Positions 35,255-44,123 of a stretch of 44,261 bases of DNA are shown here, one piece after another. The stretch comes from Escherichia phage vB_Ec-G9. A program made the translations under genes and the position numbers. Position 1 is the stretch's first letter; each line of letters begins with the position of its first letter. The notes beneath the pieces are model-generated. The model was not told where the DNA came from. It searched no databases and saw only the letters and a list, made by a program, of their open reading frames with translations. The DNA lies in sequence record PQ433351.1. The stretch is one strand, 5' to 3'.

Positions 35255-36967
35255 ATGCTTCAAAGATTAAGTGCTTACTTGGTGAAGTACAAGAGTAAAC
35301 TAACAGGTACTATTGAGCGCCTGCTATCTGATAAACTATCGGATACAATAGATGTTGCGGATTTTGGAGTTAATCCATCCTCTAATGACAACAGGCAAGC
35401 CCTTCAAGCTGCATTCAATGCGGTCAGACTGCTAGGCGGTGGTACTGTAGCAGTCACTAAAGCTGGCGAATATAAACTCAGTGGTACTGTTGAGATATTT
35501 GCTAATACACACTTCAAGGTTGCTAAAGGTGTAACATTTGTACGTGACTACGAAACAGGAGATACTCTATTCAGATTATCACAAGGGCAAGCTAGTAATG
35601 TAACAGTCAGTGGAGGTATCTATGAAGGCAATGGTCACACTAAGGGAGATACACCTTTTGTAGTATTTGCATCTACTAGTAATAATGATTTGAAGTTTGA
35701 AGGCATAACAGTTAACAATGTAGTGGACTACCACGCCATAGATTTAGCAGATTGGAACAACGTAGTTATTCGTGATTGTAAATTCCTAGGGTTTAAGAAT
35801 ACAGGCAGTCGTAACTTCTCAGAGGCTATACAGTTAGACCCAGGACTTATTACAGTAGGTCGCTATGTGCAGTCTAGTGGTTTACTGGTAGAGAATTGCT
35901 ATGCTGGCCCAAACCTTGATTCTGGATTTGGCGGGTATGGTGCTCTAGTAGGGAATCATGCATCAGCTTATGGTGTTCAAGATAACAACATTAGAATCCT
36001 AAATTGCACTACAGATGGTGCGCTCTTTGCAGGTGTACGTGTATTTAACTGGAAAAACTGGACAGTACGTGGTTGCACCTTTAGAAACTCTAATGCAAGA
36101 GGTGTTCATGTTACACCTGTCTCCTCTCAAACTAAACCGCAAGGAACTCGACAAGGTAGTGTTGTAGATTGTACTTTTGATGGCGTAAGAACACCAGTGC
36201 TAATTGCTGCACCATCTTGGCCTTTTACCGATATTAGTGACATTTGGCATGACCATATTGAAATTTCTAATAATATTATGATCCTCACAGAGGATGTATC
36301 CTATGGTGTAGATGCAAGGTGGTGTAAGAATTTAATTGTAAAAGGTAATACAGGCTCTGGTGGCTTAGGGTTAATCGGTTTACGCTTTGGGACAAAGTAC
36401 CACATCGAAGGTAATACTTGGGAAAACGGAAGAGGTAGTGGGATTTGGTTAAGTGAGTCTGATGCTACTACATTCATTGGTACTGGTTTATCAGGAGAAG
36501 GTATACTTAGTCGTAATATCTTCTCTAAATTAGGGCAACATGGTATTCATGTAAACTGCAAGGTTGGCGGTCTAGTGATTAAGGCTAATAATATGAAGGA
36601 AGTATCTACAGCTGAAGCAGGTAGGCACTTCATTAGCATAGACACAGGAGCTAACAACATCCTAGTAGAGGGTAATATTGGAGTAGATGGAGAAAGCCCT
36701 AACAAGCCAAGCCTTGGTATTAGTGTTACTTCTTCTTGCTCCAATATTAAACTAATTGGCAATGATTGCTATGGTACGCAAGCACCTCAGGATAACCAAG
36801 GAGTCGGTTCTAGTACGGTGATTGTTTATGGACTAAATGGCAATCCTACAACTTTAGGCGTAGGTGCACCTGTAGGCTCTTTAGCAACTAATATCAATGG
36901 GTCTGGTGGTAGTGCATTGTACGTTAAAAAATCTGGTACTTCTGCTAAAGGCTGGGTTGCAAAGTAG
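35255..36967 (+). CDS. tailspike 2, right-handed beta-helix (pectate-lyase-like depolymerase fold)
   Basis: Strong RBS AAAGGAGG; repeated NxxV / GNxG beta-helix-like motifs; no chaperone domain. Confidence 0.75.
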   Translation: MLQRLSAYLVKYKSKLTGTIERLLSDKLSDTIDVADFGVNPSSNDNRQALQAAFNAVRLLGGGTVAVTKAGEYKLSGTVEIFANTHFKVAKGVTFVRDYETGDTLFRLSQGQASNVTVSGGIYEGNGHTKGDTPFVVFASTSNNDLKFEGITVNNVVDYHAIDLADWNNVVIRDCKFLGFKNTGSRNFSEAIQLDPGLITVGRYVQSSGLLVENCYAGPNLDSGFGGYGALVGNHASAYGVQDNNIRILNCTTDGALFAGVRVFNWKNWTVRGCTFRNSNARGVHVTPVSSQTKPQGTRQGSVVDCTFDGVRTPVLIAAPSWPFTDISDIWHDHIEISNNIMILTEDVSYGVDARWCKNLIVKGNTGSGGLGLIGLRFGTKYHIEGNTWENGRGSGIWLSESDATTFIGTGLSGEGILSRNIFSKLGQHGIHVNCKVGGLVIKANNMKEVSTAEAGRHFISIDTGANNILVEGNIGVDGESPNKPSLGISVTSSCSNIKLIGNDCYGTQAPQDNQGVGSSTVIVYGLNGNPTTLGVGAPVGSLATNINGSGGSALYVKKSGTSAKGWVAK

Positions 36968-37154: not shown

Positions 37155-37616
37155 ATGGAAGTTTGGAGGCCTATTGCTGGTATACCAGATTACATGGTTT
37201 CCTCCTTTGGTCGTGTTAGATCTCATAAAAGAGGTAAGGTTACTATACTAAACCCTCCGCACGACAAAGGAGGTTATCGTAATGTTGTGCTACGTGTTAA
37301 TGGTGAAAAGATAAATCGCAAGGTACATAGGCTTGTGGCAGAGGCTTTCTTACCTAACCCTCACGGTTTACCTCAAGTAAATCACAAGGATGAAGTAAGA
37401 GACAATAATCATGTAAGTAATCTGGAGTGGTGTGATTGTGCATACAACGTAGATTACTCTCAAGCAGCTACTTATACTGTGATGTGCCCTAAAGGTAATA
37501 TCTTAGTAGTAAGGAATGTGGCTAAGTTTTGTAGGGAAAACGGATTAAGCAGTGGTTCTTTTACAGATATGCTTAAGGGAAGACGTAAGCAACATAAGGG
37601 TTATCGCTTAGTGTAA
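37155..37616 (+). CDS. HNH homing endonuclease (NUMOD4 + HNH)
   Basis: WRPIAGIPDYMVSSFGRV (NUMOD4-like) and VNHKDEVRDNNHVSNLEW (HNH). Confidence 0.8.
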   Translation: MEVWRPIAGIPDYMVSSFGRVRSHKRGKVTILNPPHDKGGYRNVVLRVNGEKINRKVHRLVAEAFLPNPHGLPQVNHKDEVRDNNHVSNLEWCDCAYNVDYSQAATYTVMCPKGNILVVRNVAKFCRENGLSSGSFTDMLKGRRKQHKGYRLV

Positions 37617-37669
37617 TACTTAGTGAGAGGGCTATACATGCCAAGTGGAAAATTTGATATGTATATGCG

Positions 37670-37980
37670 TCAAGTGTCTCGCCCTCGCCCTCGCCGGGTT
37701 GTCCCCATAGGGTGGCCTGAGGGAATCCGTCGAAGACGGGCAGGGCTGATGTCCTCCTTGGCTAGTACAAGGGAAGACCGAGGGAACGCCTAGGACGGCC
37801 TAGGGAATGGTTTAGTGGCGGACAAGGTGATTGCCTTAGTGAAGCCTCTTAGTACATTCCTGAGGCCATTCAGGGCGTTTATGAGGCATTGACAGGGTGG
37901 GCGTGGGTGGGCTATCTGTTCGTTTCGTTCACTCCGCTTGCGCTACGTTCACTCGCTCACGTGTACCTTAGGTTGTTCCT
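37670..37980. other. GC-rich non-coding segment; candidate terminal-repeat / genome-end region
   Basis: No ORF of 60 aa or more on either strand in 37617-38418; composition unlike flanking genes; short direct repeat CGTTCACTC twice. Confidence 0.3.
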
Positions 37981-37990
37981 TGATGGATAG

Positions 37991-38093
37991 CTTAGGTTAG
38001 CCTTAGTGGACTACCTTAGTTATAACCTTAGTGCTTATCTTAGTAATAGCTTAGTAGTGTACCTTAGTAAGTCTTAGTGTCTTCTCTTAGTGA
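37991..38093. repeat. array of about 9 short [CT]CTTAG[GT] heptamer-like repeats at about 12-bp period
   Basis: GCTTAGG, CCTTAGTG, CCTTAGTT, CCTTAGTG, TCTTAGTA, GCTTAGTA, CCTTAGTA, TCTTAGTG, TCTTAGTG; further scattered copies to 38410. Confidence 0.8.
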
Positions 38094-38238
38094 TTGCACA
38101 TGCAAGCATGTAAGATGCCATTAGGTCGCGGTCGGTAGACCGCTAAAGAAAGAGAATAGTAATAAGATGCAGTAGGAGGAACACCAGAAACCTAGCCAAC
38201 CTAGCCTATCCTAGCTCTGTATCTATTGCTTTTCCTTA

Positions 38239-38254
38239 GTCTCACATGTTAGAC
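38239..38254. repeat. palindrome variant GTCTCACATGTTAGAC (copy 5)
   Basis: One half-site base changed. Confidence 0.75.
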
Positions 38255-38288
38255 AACCTAGCTTATTCTTAGTGATGATAACTTAGTG

Positions 38289-38317
38289 TTGACAAGATAA
38301 TCTTAGTGTAATACTAT
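38289..38317 (+). promoter_or_regulatory. host sigma70-type early promoter candidate
   Basis: TTGACA - 17 bp - TACTAT. Confidence 0.55.
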
Positions 38318-38389
38318 GCATCACGTAGGCGGTGCTGAGGCACCTAGTAGCCAGCTAGTAAGGCATACGAAGAGACTAGCGCTTACATT

Positions 38390-38401
38390 GCTCTTTAACA
38401 A
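38390..38401 (+). promoter_or_regulatory. boxA-like antitermination element (copy 1)
   Basis: GCTCTTTAACAA, extended TTGCTCTTTAACAATTTG, identical to E. coli rrn boxA core. Confidence 0.6.
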
Positions 38402-38460
38402 TTTGCTTAGTGTAACCTATGTATGCCGTGGTTAATTACTTATTGAATGAGGGATTAACT

Positions 38461-38640
38461 ATGACATTAAACAACCGTGAACTATCCGTTCTCTTCACTC
38501 TGTTGTGCTACATGATTCGTAACAACGAATTGCTTACAGATGACGAGTTGGCACTGTATCACCGCTTTCTTAACGAAGGTTGGACCGATACAGTTAATCA
38601 ATACCGTAACATGATAGATGAGTTGAGGGAGGGTAAATAA
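38461..38640 (+). CDS. early hypothetical protein (59 aa)
   Basis: RBS GAGGG before ATG 38461; ORF-track start 38419 lies inside an inverted repeat and lacks an RBS. Confidence 0.55.
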   Translation: MTLNNRELSVLFTLLCYMIRNNELLTDDELALYHRFLNEGWTDTVNQYRNMIDELREGK

Positions 38641-38864
38641 TGTATCAACATGAGGTATTCTTTGAATCAGCTAGCGAAGCTATTCGCTTCCGTGATGATA
38701 TGATGCAAGCTGGTGTAGGCGTTGATGTGTATCACTATTTGATAGATTACGACACTGAATATCACCGAGTTACCTTAGTATCTGAGTATGACAACCAAGT
38801 CATTACTGAGTATCTAGGCAGTGAAGATTACGATTACGATGAAGTAATCACGACAAATCTCTAA
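38640..38864 (+). CDS. early acidic Asp/Tyr-rich protein (74 aa)
   Basis: RBS GAGGGAGGG; ATG overlaps upstream stop; acidic C-terminus EDYDYDEVITTNL. Confidence 0.6.
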   Translation: MYQHEVFFESASEAIRFRDDMMQAGVGVDVYHYLIDYDTEYHRVTLVSEYDNQVITEYLGSEDYDYDEVITTNL

Positions 38865-38872
38865 ATTAACTG

Positions 38873-38901
38873 TTGACAGCCACGGCATACAAGGTTACAT
38901 T
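38873..38901 (+). promoter_or_regulatory. host sigma70-type early promoter candidate
   Basis: TTGACA - 17 bp - TACATT. Confidence 0.5.
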
Positions 38902-38934
38902 AAGCATCAAGACGGCGACGTCTTTAAACATCCC

Positions 38935-38946
38935 GCTCTTTAACAA
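38935..38946 (+). promoter_or_regulatory. boxA-like antitermination element (copy 2)
   Basis: CCGCTCTTTAACAAGATG. Confidence 0.55.
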
Positions 38947-38993
38947 GATGGCTAGTGTCTTGATAGGCTAACTGACTAACTAAGGTAATTATC

Positions 38994-39104
38994 ATGAAAG
39001 GTTTAATTTGTGTAGAACGTATGGTCAATGGTAAACTTGAAATATTACCACTGGAAAACCAATCTAGCTTCAAAGAGTGGTATGGCTGTTTCTCACTGAT
39101 TTAA
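38994..39104 (+). CDS. early hypothetical small protein (36 aa)
   Basis: ATG 38994; weak RBS; flanked by boxA copies and a short inverted repeat. Confidence 0.3.
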   Translation: MKGLICVERMVNGKLEILPLENQSSFKEWYGCFSLI

Positions 39105-39146
39105 AGTAAAGGCTGGCACTAGTCAGCCTATCAAGGCACTATCCTT

Positions 39147-39158
39147 GCTCTTTAACAA
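39147..39158 (+). promoter_or_regulatory. boxA-like antitermination element (copy 3)
   Basis: TTGCTCTTTAACAATTTG, 18/18 identical to copy 1. Confidence 0.6.
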
Positions 39159-39253
39159 TTTGGAAGGTAGCTTCTTAGTCGGGATAGGTTAGACCTAGGG
39201 CATTCTTTGAGTGCCCTATAATGTAACCTAACTAACTAATGAGGATTAATAAC

Positions 39254-39610
39254 ATGGCTATGTCTAATATGACTTACTCTCAGGTTTACAACACCGCTCA
39301 CGCTGCATTAGTTGAACGTATCTGGGATGATGCTATTGATTGTATCGATAACGCACATGATGCAATCCATGAGGTGGCGGATAGTGCTGTACCAATCTAT
39401 TATGCTGACATCTTCTCAGTGATGGCCAGTGAAGGCATCGACCACTTCTTCGAGGATTCTGGCTTAATGCCAGACACTAAGGATGTGACGGTCGTACTAC
39501 AAGCCCGTATTTATGAACAACTCACCATTGATTTATGGGAACGTGTTCAAGATATGATTGATGCGTACATCGACTCAGCCGAAGATTTAGAAGAAGAAGA
39601 GGAAGAATAA
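39254..39610 (+). CDS. ocr: Ocr-like DNA-mimic anti-restriction protein (T7 gene 0.3 homologue)
   Basis: MAMSNMTY... [18 protein letters not shown]...[13 protein letters not shown]...[15 protein letters not shown] closely matches T7 Ocr as recalled; acidic EEEEEE C-terminus; RBS GAGGA. Confidence 0.85.
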
Positions 39611-39612
39611 AG

Positions 39613-39726
39613 ATGGAAAAGCAATATAACTTTATCTTTTCTGATGGTGTAACCTTGAAATGCTCCTTACGATTCGCCCAGATTCGCGAGGAAGTGCTAG
39701 GTACTACATATAAACTATTTATCTGA
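39613..39726 (+). CDS. early hypothetical small protein (37 aa)
   Basis: ATG 3 nt after ocr stop; below ORF-track cutoff. Confidence 0.3.
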   Translation: MEKQYNFIFSDGVTLKCSLRFAQIREEVLGTTYKLFI

Positions 39727-39740
39727 CACTATAAGAGAGG
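39716..39740 (+). promoter_or_regulatory. phage-promoter-like variant (ACTATAAGAG)
   Basis: TATTTATCTGACACTATAAGAGAGG: upstream half matches, +1 region differs. Confidence 0.35.
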
Positions 39741-39805
39741 ATTTAACAGGGCGTTACTTGTTAGCGCCCGATTAAGTTTATCTCAATAAACCAAATAGGT
39801 GACTT

Positions 39806-40690
39806 ATGACTACTGAAAACACCCTCCTGTCTGTTCGTGAAGCTGCAACCGCTGAGATCAAGCAACACTTAGACAATATCGGCACTTCTTACATCAAAGT
39901 TGGCGCTTGTCTTAATGAGTTACGCGGTGACTTTGAAGGTCAAAAAGACTTTTTGGCTTATGTAGAATCAGAATTTGGAATCAAGAAAGCACAATGTTAC
40001 AAGCTGATGAGTGTAGCCCGTGTCTTTGAAGGCGATGATCGCTTTAAAGGCGTGGCGATGCGTGTAATGCTGGCACTTGTTCCTTTCGCTGATGAAAATA
40101 TCATCATGGAGAAAGCCGCAGAACTTGCCGCAGCGGGCAAGCTGGACACTAACGCCGTGAACGCCCTGATTGAGCCTAAGAAAGAGCCAAAGTCTGAGAC
40201 GGTACAATCCAAGGCTGAGCCTGTAAAACCGAAGGAGAACGCGACTGCGGCCGCAGAATTACAGGAAACGCAAGCGCCGCAGGAAGTGCCGCCAGCAAGT
40301 GAGTCGGATGACGACAAATCAGCACCGTGGGAAGAGGAAAGCAAGCCGGAAGCGCCAAAGGCCGCGCCACTGGACAACACGGCTAACACTGAAAACGCCG
40401 CTATGGCTGGCCTACTGGCACAAATTAAGGCACTGACTGAGCAATTACAGGCAGCTAACGACCGCATCGCCGCCCTAACCAGTGCACGTGAAAGCAAGAA
40501 GGCAGCCGCGCCTATGCTTCCCCAATTCAAATCTAAATGTCTCTATGCTCGCTTGGGTTTAAGCGCTGAGGAGGCAACGAAGAAAACAGCAGTTAACAAG
40601 GCACGCCGCGAACTGGTTAAGCTAGGCTATGGTGAAGGCCATGAAGCATGGGCCTTAATCTCTGAGGCAGTAGAAGAATTAACTAAGTAA
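39806..40690 (+). CDS. early protein with low-complexity Pro/Glu/Lys/Ala-rich central linker (294 aa)
   Basis: ORF immediately upstream of RNAP gene (position of T7 gene 0.7); noticeably GC-richer codon usage; no kinase motifs seen. Confidence 0.6.
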   Translation: MTTENTLLSVREAATAEIKQHLDNIGTSYIKVGACLNELRGDFEGQKDFLAYVESEFGIKKAQCYKLMSVARVFEGDDRFKGVAMRVMLALVPFADENIIMEKAAELAAAGKLDTNAVNALIEPKKEPKSETVQSKAEPVKPKENATAAAELQETQAPQEVPPASESDDDKSAPWEEESKPEAPKAAPLDNTANTENAAMAGLLAQIKALTEQLQAANDRIAALTSARESKKAAAPMLPQFKSKCLYARLGLSAEEATKKTAVNKARRELVKLGYGEGHEAWALISEAVEELTK

Positions 40691-40753
40691 CCTTATCGGT
40701 GGCATCTTCTTAGGTGTCACCTATTAAGGTTTCTTTCACTAGGAGTAAACAAG

Positions 40754-43381
40754 ATGCAAGACTTACACGCTATTCAACTTCAACTTGAAGAAGAAATGTT
40801 TAACGGCGGTATCCGTCGCTTTGAAGCGGACCAACAGCGCCAGATTGCATCCGGTAATGAATCAGACACGGCATGGAATCGCCGCTTATTGTCCGAGTTA
40901 ATTGCGCCAATGGCTGAAGGTATTCAGGCATACAAGGAAGAGTATGAAGGTAAAAGAGGCCGTGCACCGCGTGCATTAGCTTTCATTAACTGCGTAGAAA
41001 ATGAAGTGGCAGCGTATATCACGATGAAAATCGTTATGGATATGCTGAACACGGATGTAACCTTGCAGGCTATAGCCATGAATGTAGCTGACCGCATTGA
41101 GGACCAAGTACGTTTTAGCAAGCTGGAAGGTCACGCCGCCAAATACTTTGAGAAAGTTAAGAAGTCACTTAAGGCAAGTAAGACTAAATCATATCGCCAT
41201 GCGCACAACGTAGCGGTCGTGGCTGAGAAGTCAGTAGCTGACCGTGACGCTGATTTCTCTCGCTGGGAGGCGTGGCCTAAAGATACCTTGCTACAAATCG
41301 GTATGACCTTGCTAGAAATACTGGAAAATAGTGTATTCTTCAATGGTCAGCCTGTCTTTCTTCGCACCTTGCGCACTAATGGTGGCAAGCATGGCGTTTA
41401 CTACTTACAGACTAGCGAACACGTAGGTGAATGGATAACTGCATTTAAAGAGCACGTAGCTCAGCTGAGTCCAGCCTATGCACCTTGCGTTATTCCTCCG
41501 CGTCCGTGGGTTTCTCCGTTTAATGGTGGCTTTCACACCGAGAAGGTGGCGAGTCGTATTCGTCTGGTTAAAGGAAACCGCGAGCACGTCCGCAAGCTGA
41601 CCAAAAAGCAAATGCCAGCGGTTTACAAGGCTGTTAACGCTTTGCAGGCGACTAAGTGGCAGGTTAATAAAGAGGTTTTGCAGGTAGTAGAGGACGTTAT
41701 CCGTCTCGACCTTGGTTATGGTGTGCCTTCCTTTAAACCACTCATCGACCGTGAGAACAAGCCAGCTAATCCAGTGCCGTTAGAGTTCCAGCACCTGCGA
41801 GGCCGTGAACTTAAAGAGATGCTAACGCCAGAACAGTGGCAAGCTTTTATAAACTGGAAAGGAGAATGTACCAAGCTGTATACCGCTGAAACTAAGCGCG
41901 GAAGCAAGTCGGCGGCGACCGTTCGCATGGTAGGACAAGCGCGCAAGTACAGCCAGTTCGACGCGATTTATTTCGTGTATGCACTGGATAGCCGTTCACG
42001 CGTTTATGCGCAATCTAGCACGCTCTCTCCGCAATCAAACGACTTAGGCAAGGCATTGCTCCGTTTTACCGAAGGGCAGCGTCTTGATAGCGCTGAGGCG
42101 CTTAAGTGGTTTTTGGTGAACGGGGCGAATAACTGGGGTTGGGATAAGAAAACTTTTGACGTGCGCACCGCTAACGTGCTGGATAGCGAATTTCAAGACA
42201 TGTGCCGCGACATTGCAGCCGACCCGCTGACCTTCACTCAATGGGTAAATGCTGATTCCCCTTACGGCTTCCTTGCATGGTGCTTTGAATATGCGCGTTA
42301 TCTGGATGCACTGGATGAAGGCACGCAAGACCAATTCATGACGCACCTACCCGTCCATCAAGACGGTAGTTGCTCTGGTATCCAGCACTATAGCGCGATG
42401 TTACGCGATGAAGTAGGTGCGAAAGCAGTAAACCTTAAGCCTTCTGACTCCCCTCAAGATATTTATGGCGCGGTTGCGCAGGTTGTTATCCAGAAGAATT
42501 ACGCCTACATGAATGCAGATGATGCAGAGACTTTCACATCTGGAAGCGTCACACTTACAGGTGCAGAACTGCGTAGCATGGCTAGTGCGTGGGATATGAT
42601 AGGAATCACTCGCGGCCTGACCAAAAAGCCCGTAATGACACTACCTTATGGCAGCACACGTCTAACCTGCCGTGAATCAGTGATTGATTATATCGTTGAT
42701 TTGGAAGAAAAAGAGGCCCAACGAGCTATTGCCGAAGGGCGGACGGCGAATCCCGTGCACCCTTTTGATAATGACCGCAAAGACTACCTTACACCTGGTG
42801 CAGCCTACAACTATATGACGGCTTTAATTTGGCCTTCTATCTCTGAGGTTGTTAAAGCTCCTATAGTGGCGATGAAGATGATTCGCCAGCTTGCACGTTT
42901 CGCAGCTAAAAGGAATGAAGGGTTAGAATACACCTTGCCAACTGGCTTCATCTTGCAACAAAAGATAATGGCTACCGATATGCTCCGTGTATCCACTTGC
43001 TTGATGGGTGAAATCAAGATGAGTCTACAGATTGAAACTGATGTAGTGGATGAAACGGCAATGATGGGCGCTGCCGCTCCTAACTTTGTTCACGGGCACG
43101 ATGCTAGTCACCTTATATTAACGGTATGTGACCTTGTTGATAAAGGGATTACATCTATCGCAGTAATTCATGATTCTTTTGGCACTCATGCAGGCCGTAC
43201 AGCCGATCTACGCAACAGCTTAAGGGCAGAAATGGTGAAGATGTATCAAGGCCGTAATGCACTGCAAAGCCTGCTAGATGAGCACGAAGAACGCTGGTTA
43301 GTTGATACAGGAATCCAAGTACCAGAGCAAGGAGAGTTTGACCTTAACGAAATCTTAGTATCTGACTATTGCTTCGCATAA
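40754..43381 (+). CDS. single-subunit DNA-dependent RNA polymerase (T7/SP6 type)
   Basis: [39 protein letters not shown] and C-terminal SDYCFA match T7 RNAP catalytic and C-terminal motifs; 875 aa. Confidence 0.95.
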
Positions 43382-43389
43382 TATTAATA

Positions 43390-43420
43390 GGCCATTCCTT
43401 CGGGAGTGGCCTTTCTTTTA
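43390..43420 (+). terminator. strong intrinsic terminator with UUCG tetraloop after RNAP gene
   Basis: GGCCATTCC-TTCG-GGAGTGGCC (9-bp stem, one G.U) followed by TTTCTTTT. Confidence 0.8.
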
Positions 43421-43454: not shown

Positions 43455-43470
43455 GTCTAACATGTGAGAC
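43455..43470. repeat. palindrome variant GTCTAACATGTGAGAC (copy 6)
   Basis: Mirror-image variant of copy 5; abuts promoter at 43471. Confidence 0.75.
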
Positions 43471-43495
43471 TTATTTACCGGACACTATAGGATAG
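43471..43495 (+). promoter_or_regulatory. phage RNAP promoter
   Basis: TTATTTACCGGACACTATAGGATAG. Confidence 0.7.
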
Positions 43496-43640: not shown

Positions 43641-43656
43641 GTCTCACATGTGAGAC
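43641..43656. repeat. 16-bp perfect palindrome GTCTCACATGTGAGAC (copy 7)
   Basis: Exact; 4 bp upstream of promoter at 43661. Confidence 0.9.
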
Positions 43657-43706: not shown

Positions 43707-44123
43707 ATGCGTAAATCATTAGCTCAAAGAGTAGAGCAAGCAGGTTATACTATACAAGACGACGGCACTATCAAAGGTAAACGAGGTAACACCTTGAAAC
43801 CCTGGCTTCAATCTTCAGGATATCCAGTTGTAAATATAGTATTCAAGAAAGGTACAAGAACAACTACCCTTGTGCATCGCATAATTGCTAGTAAGTATTG
43901 TCCTTGCTCTGACCCATTGGCTAATGATGTAAACCACAAAGACGGAAACAAGACTAATAATGCAGCTTCTAATCTTGAATGGATTACACGTAGGCAGAAC
44001 CGTAATCACTATTTAGGTTTTGAGGACTATATGATACTTACGGCAGATGATGCCCGTAAGAAGAATAATGAGCGCACTATTGCTCGACGTAAATTACTTA
44101 AACAGTTGAATAATAAGGATTAA
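43707..44123 (+). CDS. HNH homing endonuclease
   Basis: LVHRIIASKY ... VNHKDGNKTNNAASNLEW; RBS GGAGG. Confidence 0.8.
   Translation: MRKSLAQRVEQAGYTIQDDGTIKGKRGNTLKPWLQSSGYPVVNIVFKKGTRTTTLVHRIIASKYCPCSDPLANDVNHKDGNKTNNAASNLEWITRRQNRNHYLGFEDYMILTADDARKKNNERTIARRKLLKQLNNKD

What the first reader, a model, noticed from the sequence alone, without database searches (positions are those of the whole stretch)
38390..39158. Three exact copies of the host rrn-type boxA antitermination motif in the early leaders
GCTCTTTAACAA occurs at 38390, 38935 and 39147, each 60-110 bp upstream of an early gene start and downstream of sigma70-like promoters (TTGACA-N17-TACTAT at 38289; TTGACA-N17-TACATT at 38873). 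Copies 1 and 3 share 18 identical bases, TTGCTCTTTAACAATTTG. This is the core of the E. coli ribosomal RNA operon boxA (UGCUCUUUAACAAUUUA), the NusB/NusE loading site for processive antitermination. It suggests the phage recruits the host rrn antitermination complex so that host RNAP reads through about 5 kb of early genes to the RNAP gene. Three exact 12-mers in under 800 bp cannot be chance.
Basis: partly seen in the sequence, partly recalled or inferred. Interest (0 to 1): 0.78.

Follow-up and report, generated by a model that had tools for sequence, protein, structure and literature searches.

The report
Ribosomal-operon-style boxA leaders in phage
A K1-5-like (T7-supergroup) coliphage carries three exact copies of the host ribosomal-RNA "boxA" signal in its early transcripts, a signal already known from phage T7, but here each copy sits directly in front of a conserved RNA helix, so the early operon is laid out like a miniature ribosomal RNA operon.

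Summary
GCTCTTTAACAA occurs exactly three times (38390, 38935, 39147, + strand) and nowhere else in the window; 0.01 matches are expected by chance. It is identical to the E. coli rrn leader boxA.

The window is a circularly permuted Vectrevirus genome (K1-5/SP6 group). T7 has the same 12-mer once, between promoter A3 and gene 0.3, and it is described there as an antitermination element. The basic reading is therefore a new member of a known kind, not a discovery.

Each boxA lies 2-12 nt upstream of the 5' strand of a helix:
- Helix A (38404-38433 with 38878-38906, 29 bp) encloses genes 1-2. Its 3' strand is the spacer and -10 of internal promoter P2.
- Helix B (38950-38969 with 39125-39144) encloses a 36-codon ORF and ends 2 nt before boxA3.
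- boxA3 precedes a local hairpin in the position of the T7 RNase III site (R0.3), upstream of ocr.

Both long-range helices covary in relatives (96-98% paired; 10 of 29 and 5 of 20 pairs compensatory). The enclosed ORFs are swappable. The layout recurs in a Pseudomonas podophage and a T5-like phage.

Nus factor (NusB/S10) recruitment, RNase III cleavage and any coupling between them are inferred, not shown.

The parts
38289..38317 (+). P1, sigma70-like early promoter (TTGACA-N17-TACTAT); inferred transcription start about 38324
   Evidence: Consensus scan, 10 of 12 matches. About 375 bp from the genome left end, which lies near window 37915.
38390..38401 (+). boxA1, rrn-type boxA GCTCTTTAACAA
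   Evidence: Exact match. Unpaired in the minimum-energy fold of the 937-nt P1 transcript. Invariant in 15 relatives despite at least 6 different upstream flanks.
38404..38433 (+). Helix A, 5' strand (starts 2 nt after boxA1)
   Evidence: 29-bp duplex with 38878-38906, -48.1 kcal/mol. It is the unique best partner in the 5-kb early region; the median for other windows is -16.5. Covariation supports it.
38461..38864 (+). Cargo of helix A: gene 1 (38461-38640, 59 aa) and gene 2 (38640-38864, 74 aa), function unknown
   Evidence: ORF list; phrog_9275 and phrog_6403, function unknown; K1-5 gp1 and gp2 annotation.
38873..38901 (+). P2, internal sigma70-like promoter (TTGACA-N17-TACATT); inferred start about 38907-38909
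   Evidence: Consensus scan, 10 of 12. A TTGAC -35 directly upstream of the helix A 3' strand is present in all 17 relatives examined.
38878..38906 (+). Helix A, 3' strand (coincides with the spacer and -10 of P2)
   Evidence: repeat pairs I5 and I14. Covariation: 96.2% of cells paired, 10 of 29 pairs compensatory, slid controls at most 39%.
38909..38924 (+). Small hairpin AAGACG-GCGA-CGUCUU at the 5' end of P2 transcripts, upstream of boxA2 (boxB-like position; not conserved in all relatives)
   Evidence: Folds. Absent in L132, L134 and L138-type flanks.
38935..38946 (+). boxA2
   Evidence: Exact match. Conserved in relatives; GCTCTTTAATAA or GTTCTTTAACAA variants in L130 and L133 still fit the consensus.
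38950..38969 (+). Helix B, 5' strand (starts 3 nt after boxA2); sequence type GGYTWGTGTCTTGATAGGCT shared with SP6, K30, PhiM1 and phD2B
   Evidence: (repeat pair I1).
38994..39104 (+). Cargo of helix B: 36-codon ORF (MKGLICVERMVNGK...), no family match
   Evidence: The ORFs in the equivalent bracket of SP6, K30, PhiM1, phD2B, L130 and L132 are unrelated in sequence and length.
39110..39129 (+). Local hairpin AGGCUG-GCACUAGU-CAGCCU after the small ORF, overlapping the base of the helix B 3' strand by about 5 nt
   Evidence: listed as the minus-strand terminator-like site 39129-39110. Covarying equivalents in SP6, K30, L132 and L130 were read by eye from alignment A2, not scored.
39125..39144 (+). 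Helix B, 3' strand (ends 2 nt before boxA3)
   Evidence: 98.2% of cells paired, 5 of 20 pairs compensatory, slid controls at most 44.5%. Best partner in the 5-kb region.
39147..39158 (+). boxA3, positional homologue of the single T7 boxA (T7 813-824)
   Evidence: No consensus promoter between 39104 and 39147.
39171..39244 (+). Local irregular hairpin of about 29 bp, in the position of the T7 RNase III site R0.3; its 3' base includes the ocr Shine-Dalgarno sequence
   Evidence: MFE -35.4 kcal/mol, z = -2.8. Compensatory changes in the apical stem: GGGCA/UGCCC, GGAGA/UCUCC, GGGUA/UACCC.
39254..39610 (+). ocr (DNA-mimic anti-restriction, T7 gene 0.3 homologue)
   Evidence: Pfam PF08684, E = 5e-42.
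40754..43381 (+). Phage single-subunit RNA polymerase gene, last gene of the host-transcribed early unit
   Evidence: Pfam PF00940 and PF14700.
43389..43420 (+). Intrinsic-terminator-like hairpin plus T-run ending the early unit. The first phage-type promoter follows at 43475-43495.

Best explanation
The three motifs are functional rrn-type boxA RNA elements in early transcripts made by host RNA polymerase from P1 and P2.

Inferred mechanism: nascent boxA binds NusB-S10(NusE). With NusA, NusG and SuhB this converts host RNAP into an rrn-type antitermination complex that is fast, processive and Rho-resistant. That complex carries transcription, and probably transcription-driven genome entry as in T7, through the 5-kb early unit to the intrinsic terminator after the RNAP gene.

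Shown at sequence level: the elements are not free-standing. Each sits immediately 5' of the 5' strand of a conserved helix. The repeated unit is boxA, then a 5' strand, then a small-gene cargo, then a 3' strand, then the next boxA. This is the same logic as the rrn operon: leader boxA, a leader-trailer helix around 16S, then a spacer boxA.

Further inference:
- The boxA-anchored complex holds the 5' strand near the RNA exit channel so that the long-range helix forms when the 3' strand emerges.
- The 20-29 bp helices are RNase III sites that cut the polycistronic early RNA into units, as in T7.
- A fresh boxA directly after each helix re-arms RNAP after the upstream boxA is cut off, and also arms transcripts that start at P2.

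At the DNA level, the conserved boxA-plus-helix brackets also act as recombination joints through which early ORFs are swapped, gained and lost.
For: Identity and placement:
- Exact identity to the host rrn boxA and to the functional consensus.
- The motif is confined to the early leader, sense strand, in whole genomes of K1-5, PhiM1, K30 and this window.
- 15 relatives chosen only by RNAP homology all have 2-3 copies 1.6-3.1 kb upstream of RNAP.
- The T7 counterpart has genetic evidence for antitermination (PMC3709561 citing Savalia 2010).
- No phage-type promoters lie in 37900-43412, and an intrinsic terminator follows RNAP.

Helices:
- Energies are -48.1 and -38.5 kcal/mol, and each is the unique best partner in 5 kb.
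- Both helices and the unpaired boxAs appear in the MFE fold of the 937-nt P1 transcript, z = -6.2.
- Covariation is strong.
- Over 10 unrelated sequence types, cognate duplexes average -45.6 kcal/mol and non-cognate ones -21.3 +/- 6.6.
- G.U cells number 39 against 4 A.C cells, and the plus sense is more stable in 27 of 32 pairs, which favours RNA pairing on the transcribed strand.

Cargo and cassette behaviour:
- Cargo ORFs are unrelated between phages.
- The cassette is missing in L131, L134 and L143, with the junction exactly at boxA.

The rrn model (boxA, leader-trailer helix, RNase III, second boxA set, and the anchoring hypothesis) comes from PMC10250234.
Against: - Nothing here measures Nus binding, termination, RNase III cleavage or RNA ends.
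- The early unit is densely coding, so translation should already protect it from Rho.
- T7 manages with one boxA and several later RNase III sites that have no following boxA. PhiM1 has the helix-B bracket with a single boxA and a promoter instead of a second boxA. 'Re-arming' is therefore not obligatory.
- No boxC consensus is present.
- In Warner et al., boxA mutations reduced 30S function only 2-3 fold, so the chaperone role of the antitermination complex is itself unsettled.
- Copy number could simply track cassette number through recombination.
Confidence: 0.55

Rival explanations
1. Plain antiterminators plus recombination history. Each boxA only recruits Nus factors, as in T7. The helices are ordinary RNase III or stability elements with no functional link to boxA. 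The number of copies simply reflects how many promoter, leader and small-gene cassettes (morons) were acquired by recombination at conserved leader sequences.
For: - Copy number varies from 2 to 3 among close relatives, with junctions exactly at boxA.
- Flanks are mosaic: the SP6 copy at 926 combines the upstream flank of window copy 3 with the downstream flank of window copy 1.
- Cargo ORFs are unrelated.
- T7 works with one copy.
- PhiM1 has the bracket with one boxA.
Against: - The spacing is tight and recurs: boxA ends 2-3 nt before the 5' strand, and the helix B 3' strand ends 2 nt before the next boxA.
- The same layout recurs with completely unrelated helix sequences in Pseudomonas phage Alpheus and a T5-like Klebsiella phage. 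This is hard to explain by shared ancestry of one cassette.
Confidence: 0.27
2. DNA-level mobile element. The inverted repeats are terminal inverted repeats of a small non-autonomous element, and the flanking 12-bp boxA direct repeats are target-site duplications, with boxA as the preferred target.
For: The pattern is direct repeat, inverted repeat, cargo, inverted repeat, direct repeat. 'Empty' sites in L131, L134 and L143 consist of one boxA.
Against: - G.U-type mismatches outnumber A.C-type 39 to 4, and the plus sense is more stable in 27 of 32 pairs. A DNA-level repeat would not show this asymmetry.
- No transposase is present anywhere nearby.
- Cargo differs completely while the brackets are kept.
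- The helix A 3' strand doubles as a promoter, and 28 nt separate it from boxA2.
- boxA is also present as a single copy at the same place in T7.
Confidence: 0.05
3. Nus-factor decoy or translational control. Abundant early RNAs with several boxAs either titrate NusB/S10/SuhB away from host rrn operons (host shut-off), or the boxA-bound complex occludes the downstream ribosome-binding sites, as at suhB.
For: - Strong consensus promoters and several copies per transcript.
- boxA2 is 47 nt from a start codon, within the range where boxA represses suhB translation (PMC5725501).
- RNAalifold paired boxA UCUUUA with the ocr Shine-Dalgarno UGAGGA.
Against: - T7 genetics point to antitermination of host RNAP on the phage genome.
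- Repression of ocr, which must be made first, makes little sense.
- A decoy does not explain the fixed position in front of helices.
Confidence: 0.08

Closest known systems
Phage T7 early-region boxA (T7 nt 813-824, between promoter A3 and the R0.3 RNase III site and gene 0.3)
   Same: Identical 12-mer GCTCTTTAACAA. Same position relative to host-type early promoters, a hairpin and ocr/gene 0.3. Described as an antitermination element acting on host RNAP (PMC3709561).
   Different: T7 has one copy, after three promoters, followed by a local hairpin. This phage has three copies, two of them tied to long-range helices that enclose genes, and an internal promoter embedded in a helix strand.
E. 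coli rrn operon antitermination and processing architecture (boxB-boxA-boxC, leader-trailer helices, RNase III, rrnTAC)
   Same: Same boxA sequence. boxA lies just 5' of the 5' strand of a 20-30 bp long-range helix. A new boxA follows the 3' strand. The helices are supported by covariation.
   Different: The payload is a small protein-coding cassette of 110-400 nt, not rRNA. There is no boxC consensus and no conserved boxB. Loops are 150-450 nt rather than 1.5-2.9 kb. RNase III cleavage is untested.
Lambda nut sites (boxA-boxB with N protein)
   Same: A phage uses host Nus factors through a boxA in early transcripts.
   Different: Lambda boxA deviates from the consensus and needs N bound to a boxB hairpin placed 3' of boxA. 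Here boxA is the full rrn consensus, which suffices without N. None of the six small early ORFs scanned against PHROGs matched an antiterminator family, and the hairpins do not follow the boxA-boxB order.
boxA upstream of suhB and of CRISPR arrays (non-rRNA Nus targets)
   Same: Consensus boxA in the leaders of non-ribosomal transcripts, giving Rho protection or regulation (PMC5725501; PMC7665894 by title and abstract).
   Different: Those are single copies in host genes or arrays. No bracketed-helix repeat unit is described for them.
T4-type PeSL 'mobile regulatory cassettes' (promoter-early stem-loops flanking hypervariable early ORFs; Arbiol, Comeau and Krisch 2010, recalled from memory and not checked here)
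   Same: Conserved early regulatory sequences flank swappable small ORFs and act as recombination joints.
   Different: Different sequences, a different phage group, and no boxA or Nus connection.

Membership tests
rrn-type BoxA (NusB-NusE/S10 binding RNA element) | Match to the functional gamma-proteobacterial consensus GYTCTTTAANA | tested here: met
   All three copies read GCTCTTTAACA(A). The consensus is from PMC5725501.
rrn-type BoxA (NusB-NusE/S10 binding RNA element) | Identity with the host's own rrn leader boxA | tested here: met
   12 of 12 identical, and 16 of 18 with flanks, to the E. coli rrn leader. That leader is present about 7 times per genome and lies upstream of 16S.
rrn-type BoxA (NusB-NusE/S10 binding RNA element) | Present in the sense strand of an RNA made by host RNAP | tested here: inconclusive
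   The sequence context fits: consensus sigma70 promoters lie upstream, there are no phage-type promoters before 43475, and the orientation is the same as the genes. Transcription itself was not measured.
rrn-type BoxA (NusB-NusE/S10 binding RNA element) | Accessible (single-stranded) in the transcript | tested here: met
   boxA1 and boxA3 are unpaired and boxA2 only weakly paired in the MFE and centroid folds of the 937-nt P1 transcript.
rrn-type BoxA (NusB-NusE/S10 binding RNA element) | Purifying selection on the motif relative to its flanks | tested here: met
   The motif is invariant or consensus-preserving in 15 RNAP-selected relatives, with at least 6 unrelated upstream flank types. It is conserved across Molineuxvirinae, Studiervirinae and Corkvirinae.
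rrn-type BoxA (NusB-NusE/S10 binding RNA element) | Binds NusB-NusE and confers Nus-dependent antitermination | not testable with these tools
   Only the T7 precedent is available.
T7-group early boxA upstream of gene 0.3 | Located after the host-type early promoters and immediately before an RNase III-type hairpin and ocr/gene 0.3 | tested here: met
   Copy 3 is followed by the hairpin 39171-39244 and ocr at 39254. T7 has boxA at 813-824, a hairpin, and gene 0.3 at 925.
rrn-operon-like leader-trailer helix architecture | Complementary flanks forming a long helix around a payload, supported by covariation | tested here: met
   Helix A is 29 bp and helix B is 20 bp plus an extension. 96.2% and 98.2% of cells are paired, and 10 and 5 pairs are compensatory.
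rrn-operon-like leader-trailer helix architecture | boxA just upstream of the 5' strand, and a second boxA after the 3' strand | tested here: met
   Spacings are 2, 3 and 12 nt after the boxAs. Helix B's 3' strand ends 2 nt before boxA3, and helix A's 3' strand ends 28 nt before boxA2.
rrn-operon-like leader-trailer helix architecture | boxC consensus (UCUGUGUGGG) within the 5' strand | tested here: not met
   There is no match with up to 2 mismatches anywhere near the boxAs.
rrn-operon-like leader-trailer helix architecture | Helices cleaved by RNase III; payload is a structured RNA | not testable with these tools
   Cleavage cannot be tested. The payloads are small ORFs, not rRNA.
Lambda-type nut site | boxB hairpin 3' of boxA, bound by a phage N-type protein | tested here: not met
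   What follows each boxA is a 20-29 bp helix strand, not a short N-binding hairpin. None of the six small early ORFs scanned matches an antiterminator family, and no Rfam family matches.

The most novel reading that the evidence does not exclude
Virulent phages of several families (Autographiviridae, T5-like Demerecviridae) build their host-transcribed early operons as mimics of the rRNA operon. A consensus boxA tethers the 5' strand of a long-range helix to host RNAP through the rrn antitermination complex. The complex chaperones helix formation across a small-gene cargo, RNase III then excises the unit, and the next boxA re-arms the polymerase. The conserved brackets double as an integron-like exchange system for early anti-host genes.
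Probability: 0.3. Interest if true: 0.75.

Novelty: new variant of a known kind. Interest (0 to 1): 0.5.

Why it matters
The bare finding, a host rrn boxA in T7-group early leaders, is already known from T7 and adds only a further member.

The repeated unit of boxA, helix strand, cargo, helix strand and boxA would matter for three reasons:
- It gives a compact, genetically tractable system of about 150-450 nt loops in a lytic phage. This could test the unsettled idea that the rrn antitermination complex acts as an RNA-annealing chaperone for leader-trailer helices.
- It explains why some phages carry several boxAs.
- It identifies conserved brackets that mark, and probably mobilise, hypervariable early genes. 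Those genes are candidates for anti-defence or host-takeover functions.

It also offers portable parts for phage engineering: insulated, processed and antiterminated expression cassettes.

Tried and rejected
- Chance occurrence: rejected.
- boxA as part of a promoter: rejected. The copies lie 66, 27 and more than 230 nt downstream of the inferred starts, and copy 3 has no promoter.
- boxA as part of the helices themselves: rejected. The helices start 2-12 nt after the motif, and boxA is unpaired in the folds.
- Known RNA family: none in Rfam.
- boxC: absent.
- Conserved boxB: the upstream flanks are hypervariable.
- Long-range partner for the sequence after boxA3: none stands out, and a local hairpin forms instead.
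- gp0.7-type kinase that would link to RNase III: the 294-aa early protein has no Pfam hit and only an unknown-function PHROG.
- RNAalifold on the third hairpin failed because MAFFT misaligned distant rows. It was replaced by counting pairs on a stated structure.
- Literature: Dobbins 2004 (PMC374404) and Savalia 2010 (PMC2941873) are not held. Scholl 2004 (SP6/K1-5 genomes, J Mol Biol) was not looked up. Full-text searches combining boxA with SP6, K1-5, K1E, T5, phiKMV, T7-like or Autographiviridae found no description of multiple boxAs or of the helices. Prior description in those papers therefore cannot be excluded.
Full report
**Observation.** The 12-mer GCTCTTTAACAA occurs exactly three times in the window, at 38390, 38935 and 39147, all on the + strand. 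The expected count is 0.01, and no shuffle reached three. Relaxing to two mismatches adds nothing meaningful: the only 1-mismatch site, 36876 GCTCTTTAGCAA, breaks the functional consensus. Copies 1 and 3 share 18 identical bases.

I recalled the E. coli rrn leader sequence from memory and then verified it. It is 100% identical to E. coli genomes, present about seven times per genome in all 5,426 genomes, and lies directly upstream of 16S rRNA. It contains the same 12-mer, and 16 of 18 bases match when flanks are included.

- The distances from the end of each motif to the next start codon are 59, 47 and 95 nt.
- Copy 3 has no promoter of its own.

**What the window is.** The region is 91-97% identical to Vectrevirus genomes (K1-5, AAPEc6 and others; Autographiviridae, Molineuxvirinae, relatives of SP6). 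The window is circularly permuted, with the genome left end near 37915.

The three motifs lie in the first 1.3 kb of the genome. Moving rightward, they are followed by:
- ocr, 39254-39610 (Pfam ocr);
- small ORFs of unknown function;
- the phage RNA polymerase gene, 40754-43381;
- an intrinsic-terminator-like hairpin at 43389-43412;
- the first phage-type promoter at 43475.

No phage-type promoter lies between the left end and the terminator. This 5-kb unit is therefore, by sequence, the host-transcribed early operon.

**The basic idea is known.** T7 carries the identical 12-mer once, at 813-824. It lies downstream of promoters A1-A3 and upstream of a hairpin and gene 0.3. [quoted passage not shown] Mutations in it make the host-RNAP inhibitor Gp2 dispensable (PMC3709561 citing Savalia et al. 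2010). Window copy 3 is the positional homologue: boxA, then a hairpin, then ocr.

All three copies fit the functional consensus GYTCTTTAANA derived for gamma-proteobacteria (PMC5725501).

**Distribution in related genomes.**
- In the complete genomes of K1-5, PhiM1 (Corkvirinae) and K30 (Studiervirinae), and in this window, the consensus occurs only in the early leader on the sense strand.
- SP6 has two exact copies and one 1-mismatch copy.
- Fifteen relatives retrieved only by RNAP homology all have 2-3 copies 1.6-3.1 kb upstream of the RNAP gene. The motif is preserved while the upstream flank of copy 1 exists in at least six unrelated versions.

The sequence directly after each boxA is complementary to the sequence shortly before the next boxA.

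- Helix A pairs 38404-38433 with 38878-38906. It has 29 bp with one bulge and an energy of -48.1 kcal/mol. It encloses genes 1 and 2.
- Helix B pairs 38950-38969 with 39125-39144 and has an irregular extension, with an energy of -38.5 kcal/mol. It encloses a 36-codon ORF and ends 2 nt before boxA3.

For both helices, the partner is the single best match anywhere in the 5-kb early region. The scores are -48 and -37 against medians of -16.5 and -17.5 with an sd of 4-5. Both helices appear in the minimum-energy fold of the whole 937-nt P1 transcript, where the boxAs remain unpaired (z = -6.2).

The sequence after boxA3 has no long-range partner. It forms a local hairpin of about 29 bp (39171-39244, z = -2.8) that includes the ocr Shine-Dalgarno sequence, in the position of T7 R0.3.

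**Are the helices real?** Covariation was counted on alignments of 11 distinct relatives.

| Element | Cells paired | Pairs with compensatory change | Best slid-register control |
|---|---|---|---|
| Helix A | 96.2% | 10 of 29 | 39% |
| Helix B | 98.2% | 5 of 20 | 44.5% |
| Third hairpin (several misaligned rows) | 80% | 8 of 29 | 50% |

Across all loci with two consecutive boxAs, 32 of 42 distinct pairs form duplexes below -35 kcal/mol. Shuffled controls give about -17 +/- 3.5. Over ten unrelated sequence types, cognate strands average -45.6 kcal/mol and non-cognate combinations -21.3 +/- 6.6.

G.U juxtapositions outnumber A.C by 39 to 4 in helices A and B. The plus-sense duplex is more stable than the minus-sense one in 27 of 32 cases. 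Selection is therefore on RNA pairing in the transcribed sense, not on a DNA inverted repeat.

**Further anatomy.**
- The 3' strand of helix A coincides with the spacer and -10 of promoter P2. A TTGAC -35 sits directly upstream of that strand in all 17 relatives examined.
- P1 transcripts therefore contain the whole helix, whereas P2 transcripts start just after it.
- If RNase III cuts helix A, processed P1 RNA and primary P2 RNA would have nearly the same 5' end, just before boxA2.

**Cargo and cassette behaviour.**
- The ORFs enclosed by helix-B-type brackets are unrelated in SP6, K30, PhiM1, phD2B and different Vectrevirus lineages. The bracket itself (boxA, then GGYTWGTGTCTTGATAGGCT ... 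AGCCTATCAAGGCAC, then boxA) is conserved across three subfamilies.
- Some close relatives lack the cassette altogether. In those, the upstream flank of copy 2 is joined to the downstream flank of copy 3 exactly at one boxA (L131, L134, L143).
- SP6 shows flank mosaics.

The brackets thus behave as recombination joints for swappable early genes. As I recall it, T4-type PeSL cassettes behave in a comparable way.

**Comparison with the rrn operon.** In rrn operons, boxB-boxA-boxC follows promoter P2. boxC lies in the 5' strand of a 25-40 bp leader-trailer helix around 16S rRNA that RNase III cleaves. A second boxA set precedes 23S. boxA is necessary and sufficient for assembling the antitermination complex. 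Wahl and colleagues proposed that boxA-NusB anchoring keeps the 5' strand at the RNA exit channel until the trailer emerges (PMC10250234).

The phage unit has the same order and similar helix lengths. It lacks a boxC consensus and a conserved boxB, and it carries mRNA cargo.

**Best explanation.** The boxAs recruit NusB/S10 and the rest of the rrn-type complex to host RNAP. This part is inferred, with T7 as precedent. It would give fast, Rho-resistant transcription of the early unit.

The fixed position of each boxA in front of a helix reflects a link to co-transcriptional formation of those helices, which are probable RNase III sites as in T7. A new boxA after each helix then arms P2-initiated transcripts and re-arms RNAP once processing has severed the upstream boxA. 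This coupling is also inference.

Arguments against the coupling:
- T7 has one boxA and several later RNase III sites.
- PhiM1 has the bracket with a single boxA and a promoter after the 3' strand.
- The chaperone role of the complex is itself modest or unsettled.

**Rival explanations.**
- The main rival is plain antiterminators whose number only reflects cassette acquisition.
- A transposon-like reading (inverted repeats plus a 12-bp target duplication) is disfavoured by the G.U/A.C asymmetry, the absence of a transposase and the variable cargo.
- Decoy or translational-repression roles are possible minor functions.

**Generality.** These fall into several groups:
- T7-like genomes with 1-3 leader copies.
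- Pseudomonas phage Alpheus (L017), with a -61 kcal/mol bracket.
- The terminal repeat of the T5-like Klebsiella phage IME260 (L072), with a -41 kcal/mol bracket.
- Contigs of virulent-phage size with 3-5 boxAs, in L014 each about 20 nt after a -10 element.
- Prophage-like contigs with a hairpin abutting boxA.

Multi-copy rrn-type boxA is thus common in phages of Enterobacterales and beyond.

**Novelty and limits.** I could not read the SP6 genome paper (Dobbins 2004) or Savalia 2010, and I did not look up Scholl 2004, the SP6/K1-5 genome paper. Full-text searches found no description of multiple boxAs or of boxA-adjacent long-range helices in these phages.

I rate the bracketed, rrn-like repeat unit as a new variant of a known kind, pending the literature check. 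All functional steps (Nus binding, Rho resistance, RNase III cleavage and coupling) remain untested.

Noticed in passing
window 37600-38310 (dense at 38002-38091 and 38235-38307); also 38406 and 39174: CTTAGT occurs 53 times in the window against 29.6 +/- 4.7 expected. There is an array of 8 copies with a period of about 12 nt just inside the genome left end, and more copies around P1. The same hexamer recurs right after boxA1 and boxA3. These are probably the T7-type left-end short repeats. The link to the boxA flanks is unexplained.
   Followed up: partly
L014 5647-7045 (104-kb contig); L072/L073 (Klebsiella phage IME260 terminal repeat); L088; L107: Large virulent-phage contigs carry 3-5 rrn-type boxAs within 0.4-1.4 kb. 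In L014 each lies about 20 nt downstream of a TATAAT-like -10. The IME260 pair brackets a -41 kcal/mol long-range duplex. Only IME260 was identified as T5-like; L014, L088 and L107 were not identified. The boxA-helix design is therefore not restricted to the T7 supergroup.
   Followed up: partly
L040-L044, L050, L066, L067, L095, L096 and others; L056, L065, L093, L123-L125: Two large families of prophage-like contigs have a G+C-rich hairpin (AAAAAAGCGCCC...GGACGCTT or GCGCCGGACAC...CCGGCAT) abutting a consensus boxA on its 5' side. This gives a boxB-boxA order like rrn, not like lambda nut. They were not identified further.
   Followed up: no
L005 (PhiM1) 730-990: PhiM1 has the helix-B-type bracket (5' strand after boxA at 730, 3' strand near 965-985) but only one boxA. 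The 3' strand is followed by a TTGACA promoter-like sequence instead of a second boxA. A second candidate partner lies near 2900.
   Followed up: partly
window 39149-39154 with 39240-39245: RNAalifold paired boxA3 UCUUUA with the ocr Shine-Dalgarno UGAGGA in all 11 relatives. This is reminiscent of boxA-dependent S-D occlusion at suhB, but is probably incidental.
   Followed up: no
window 43707-44123: An HNH homing-endonuclease-like ORF (138 aa, phrog_959, E = 1e-33) sits just after the RNAP gene and the first phage promoters.
   Followed up: no
window 43641-43656; similar sequences at 43455-43470 and 38236-38250: The palindrome GTCTCACATGTGAGAC and near-copies precede the phage-type promoters at 43475 and about 43660. 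A related copy (agtctcacatgttagac) lies upstream of P1. Function unknown.
   Followed up: no
window 36876-36887: GCTCTTTAGCAA is a one-mismatch boxA-like sequence near the genome right end. The A9G change breaks the functional consensus, so it is probably not a boxA.
   Followed up: no
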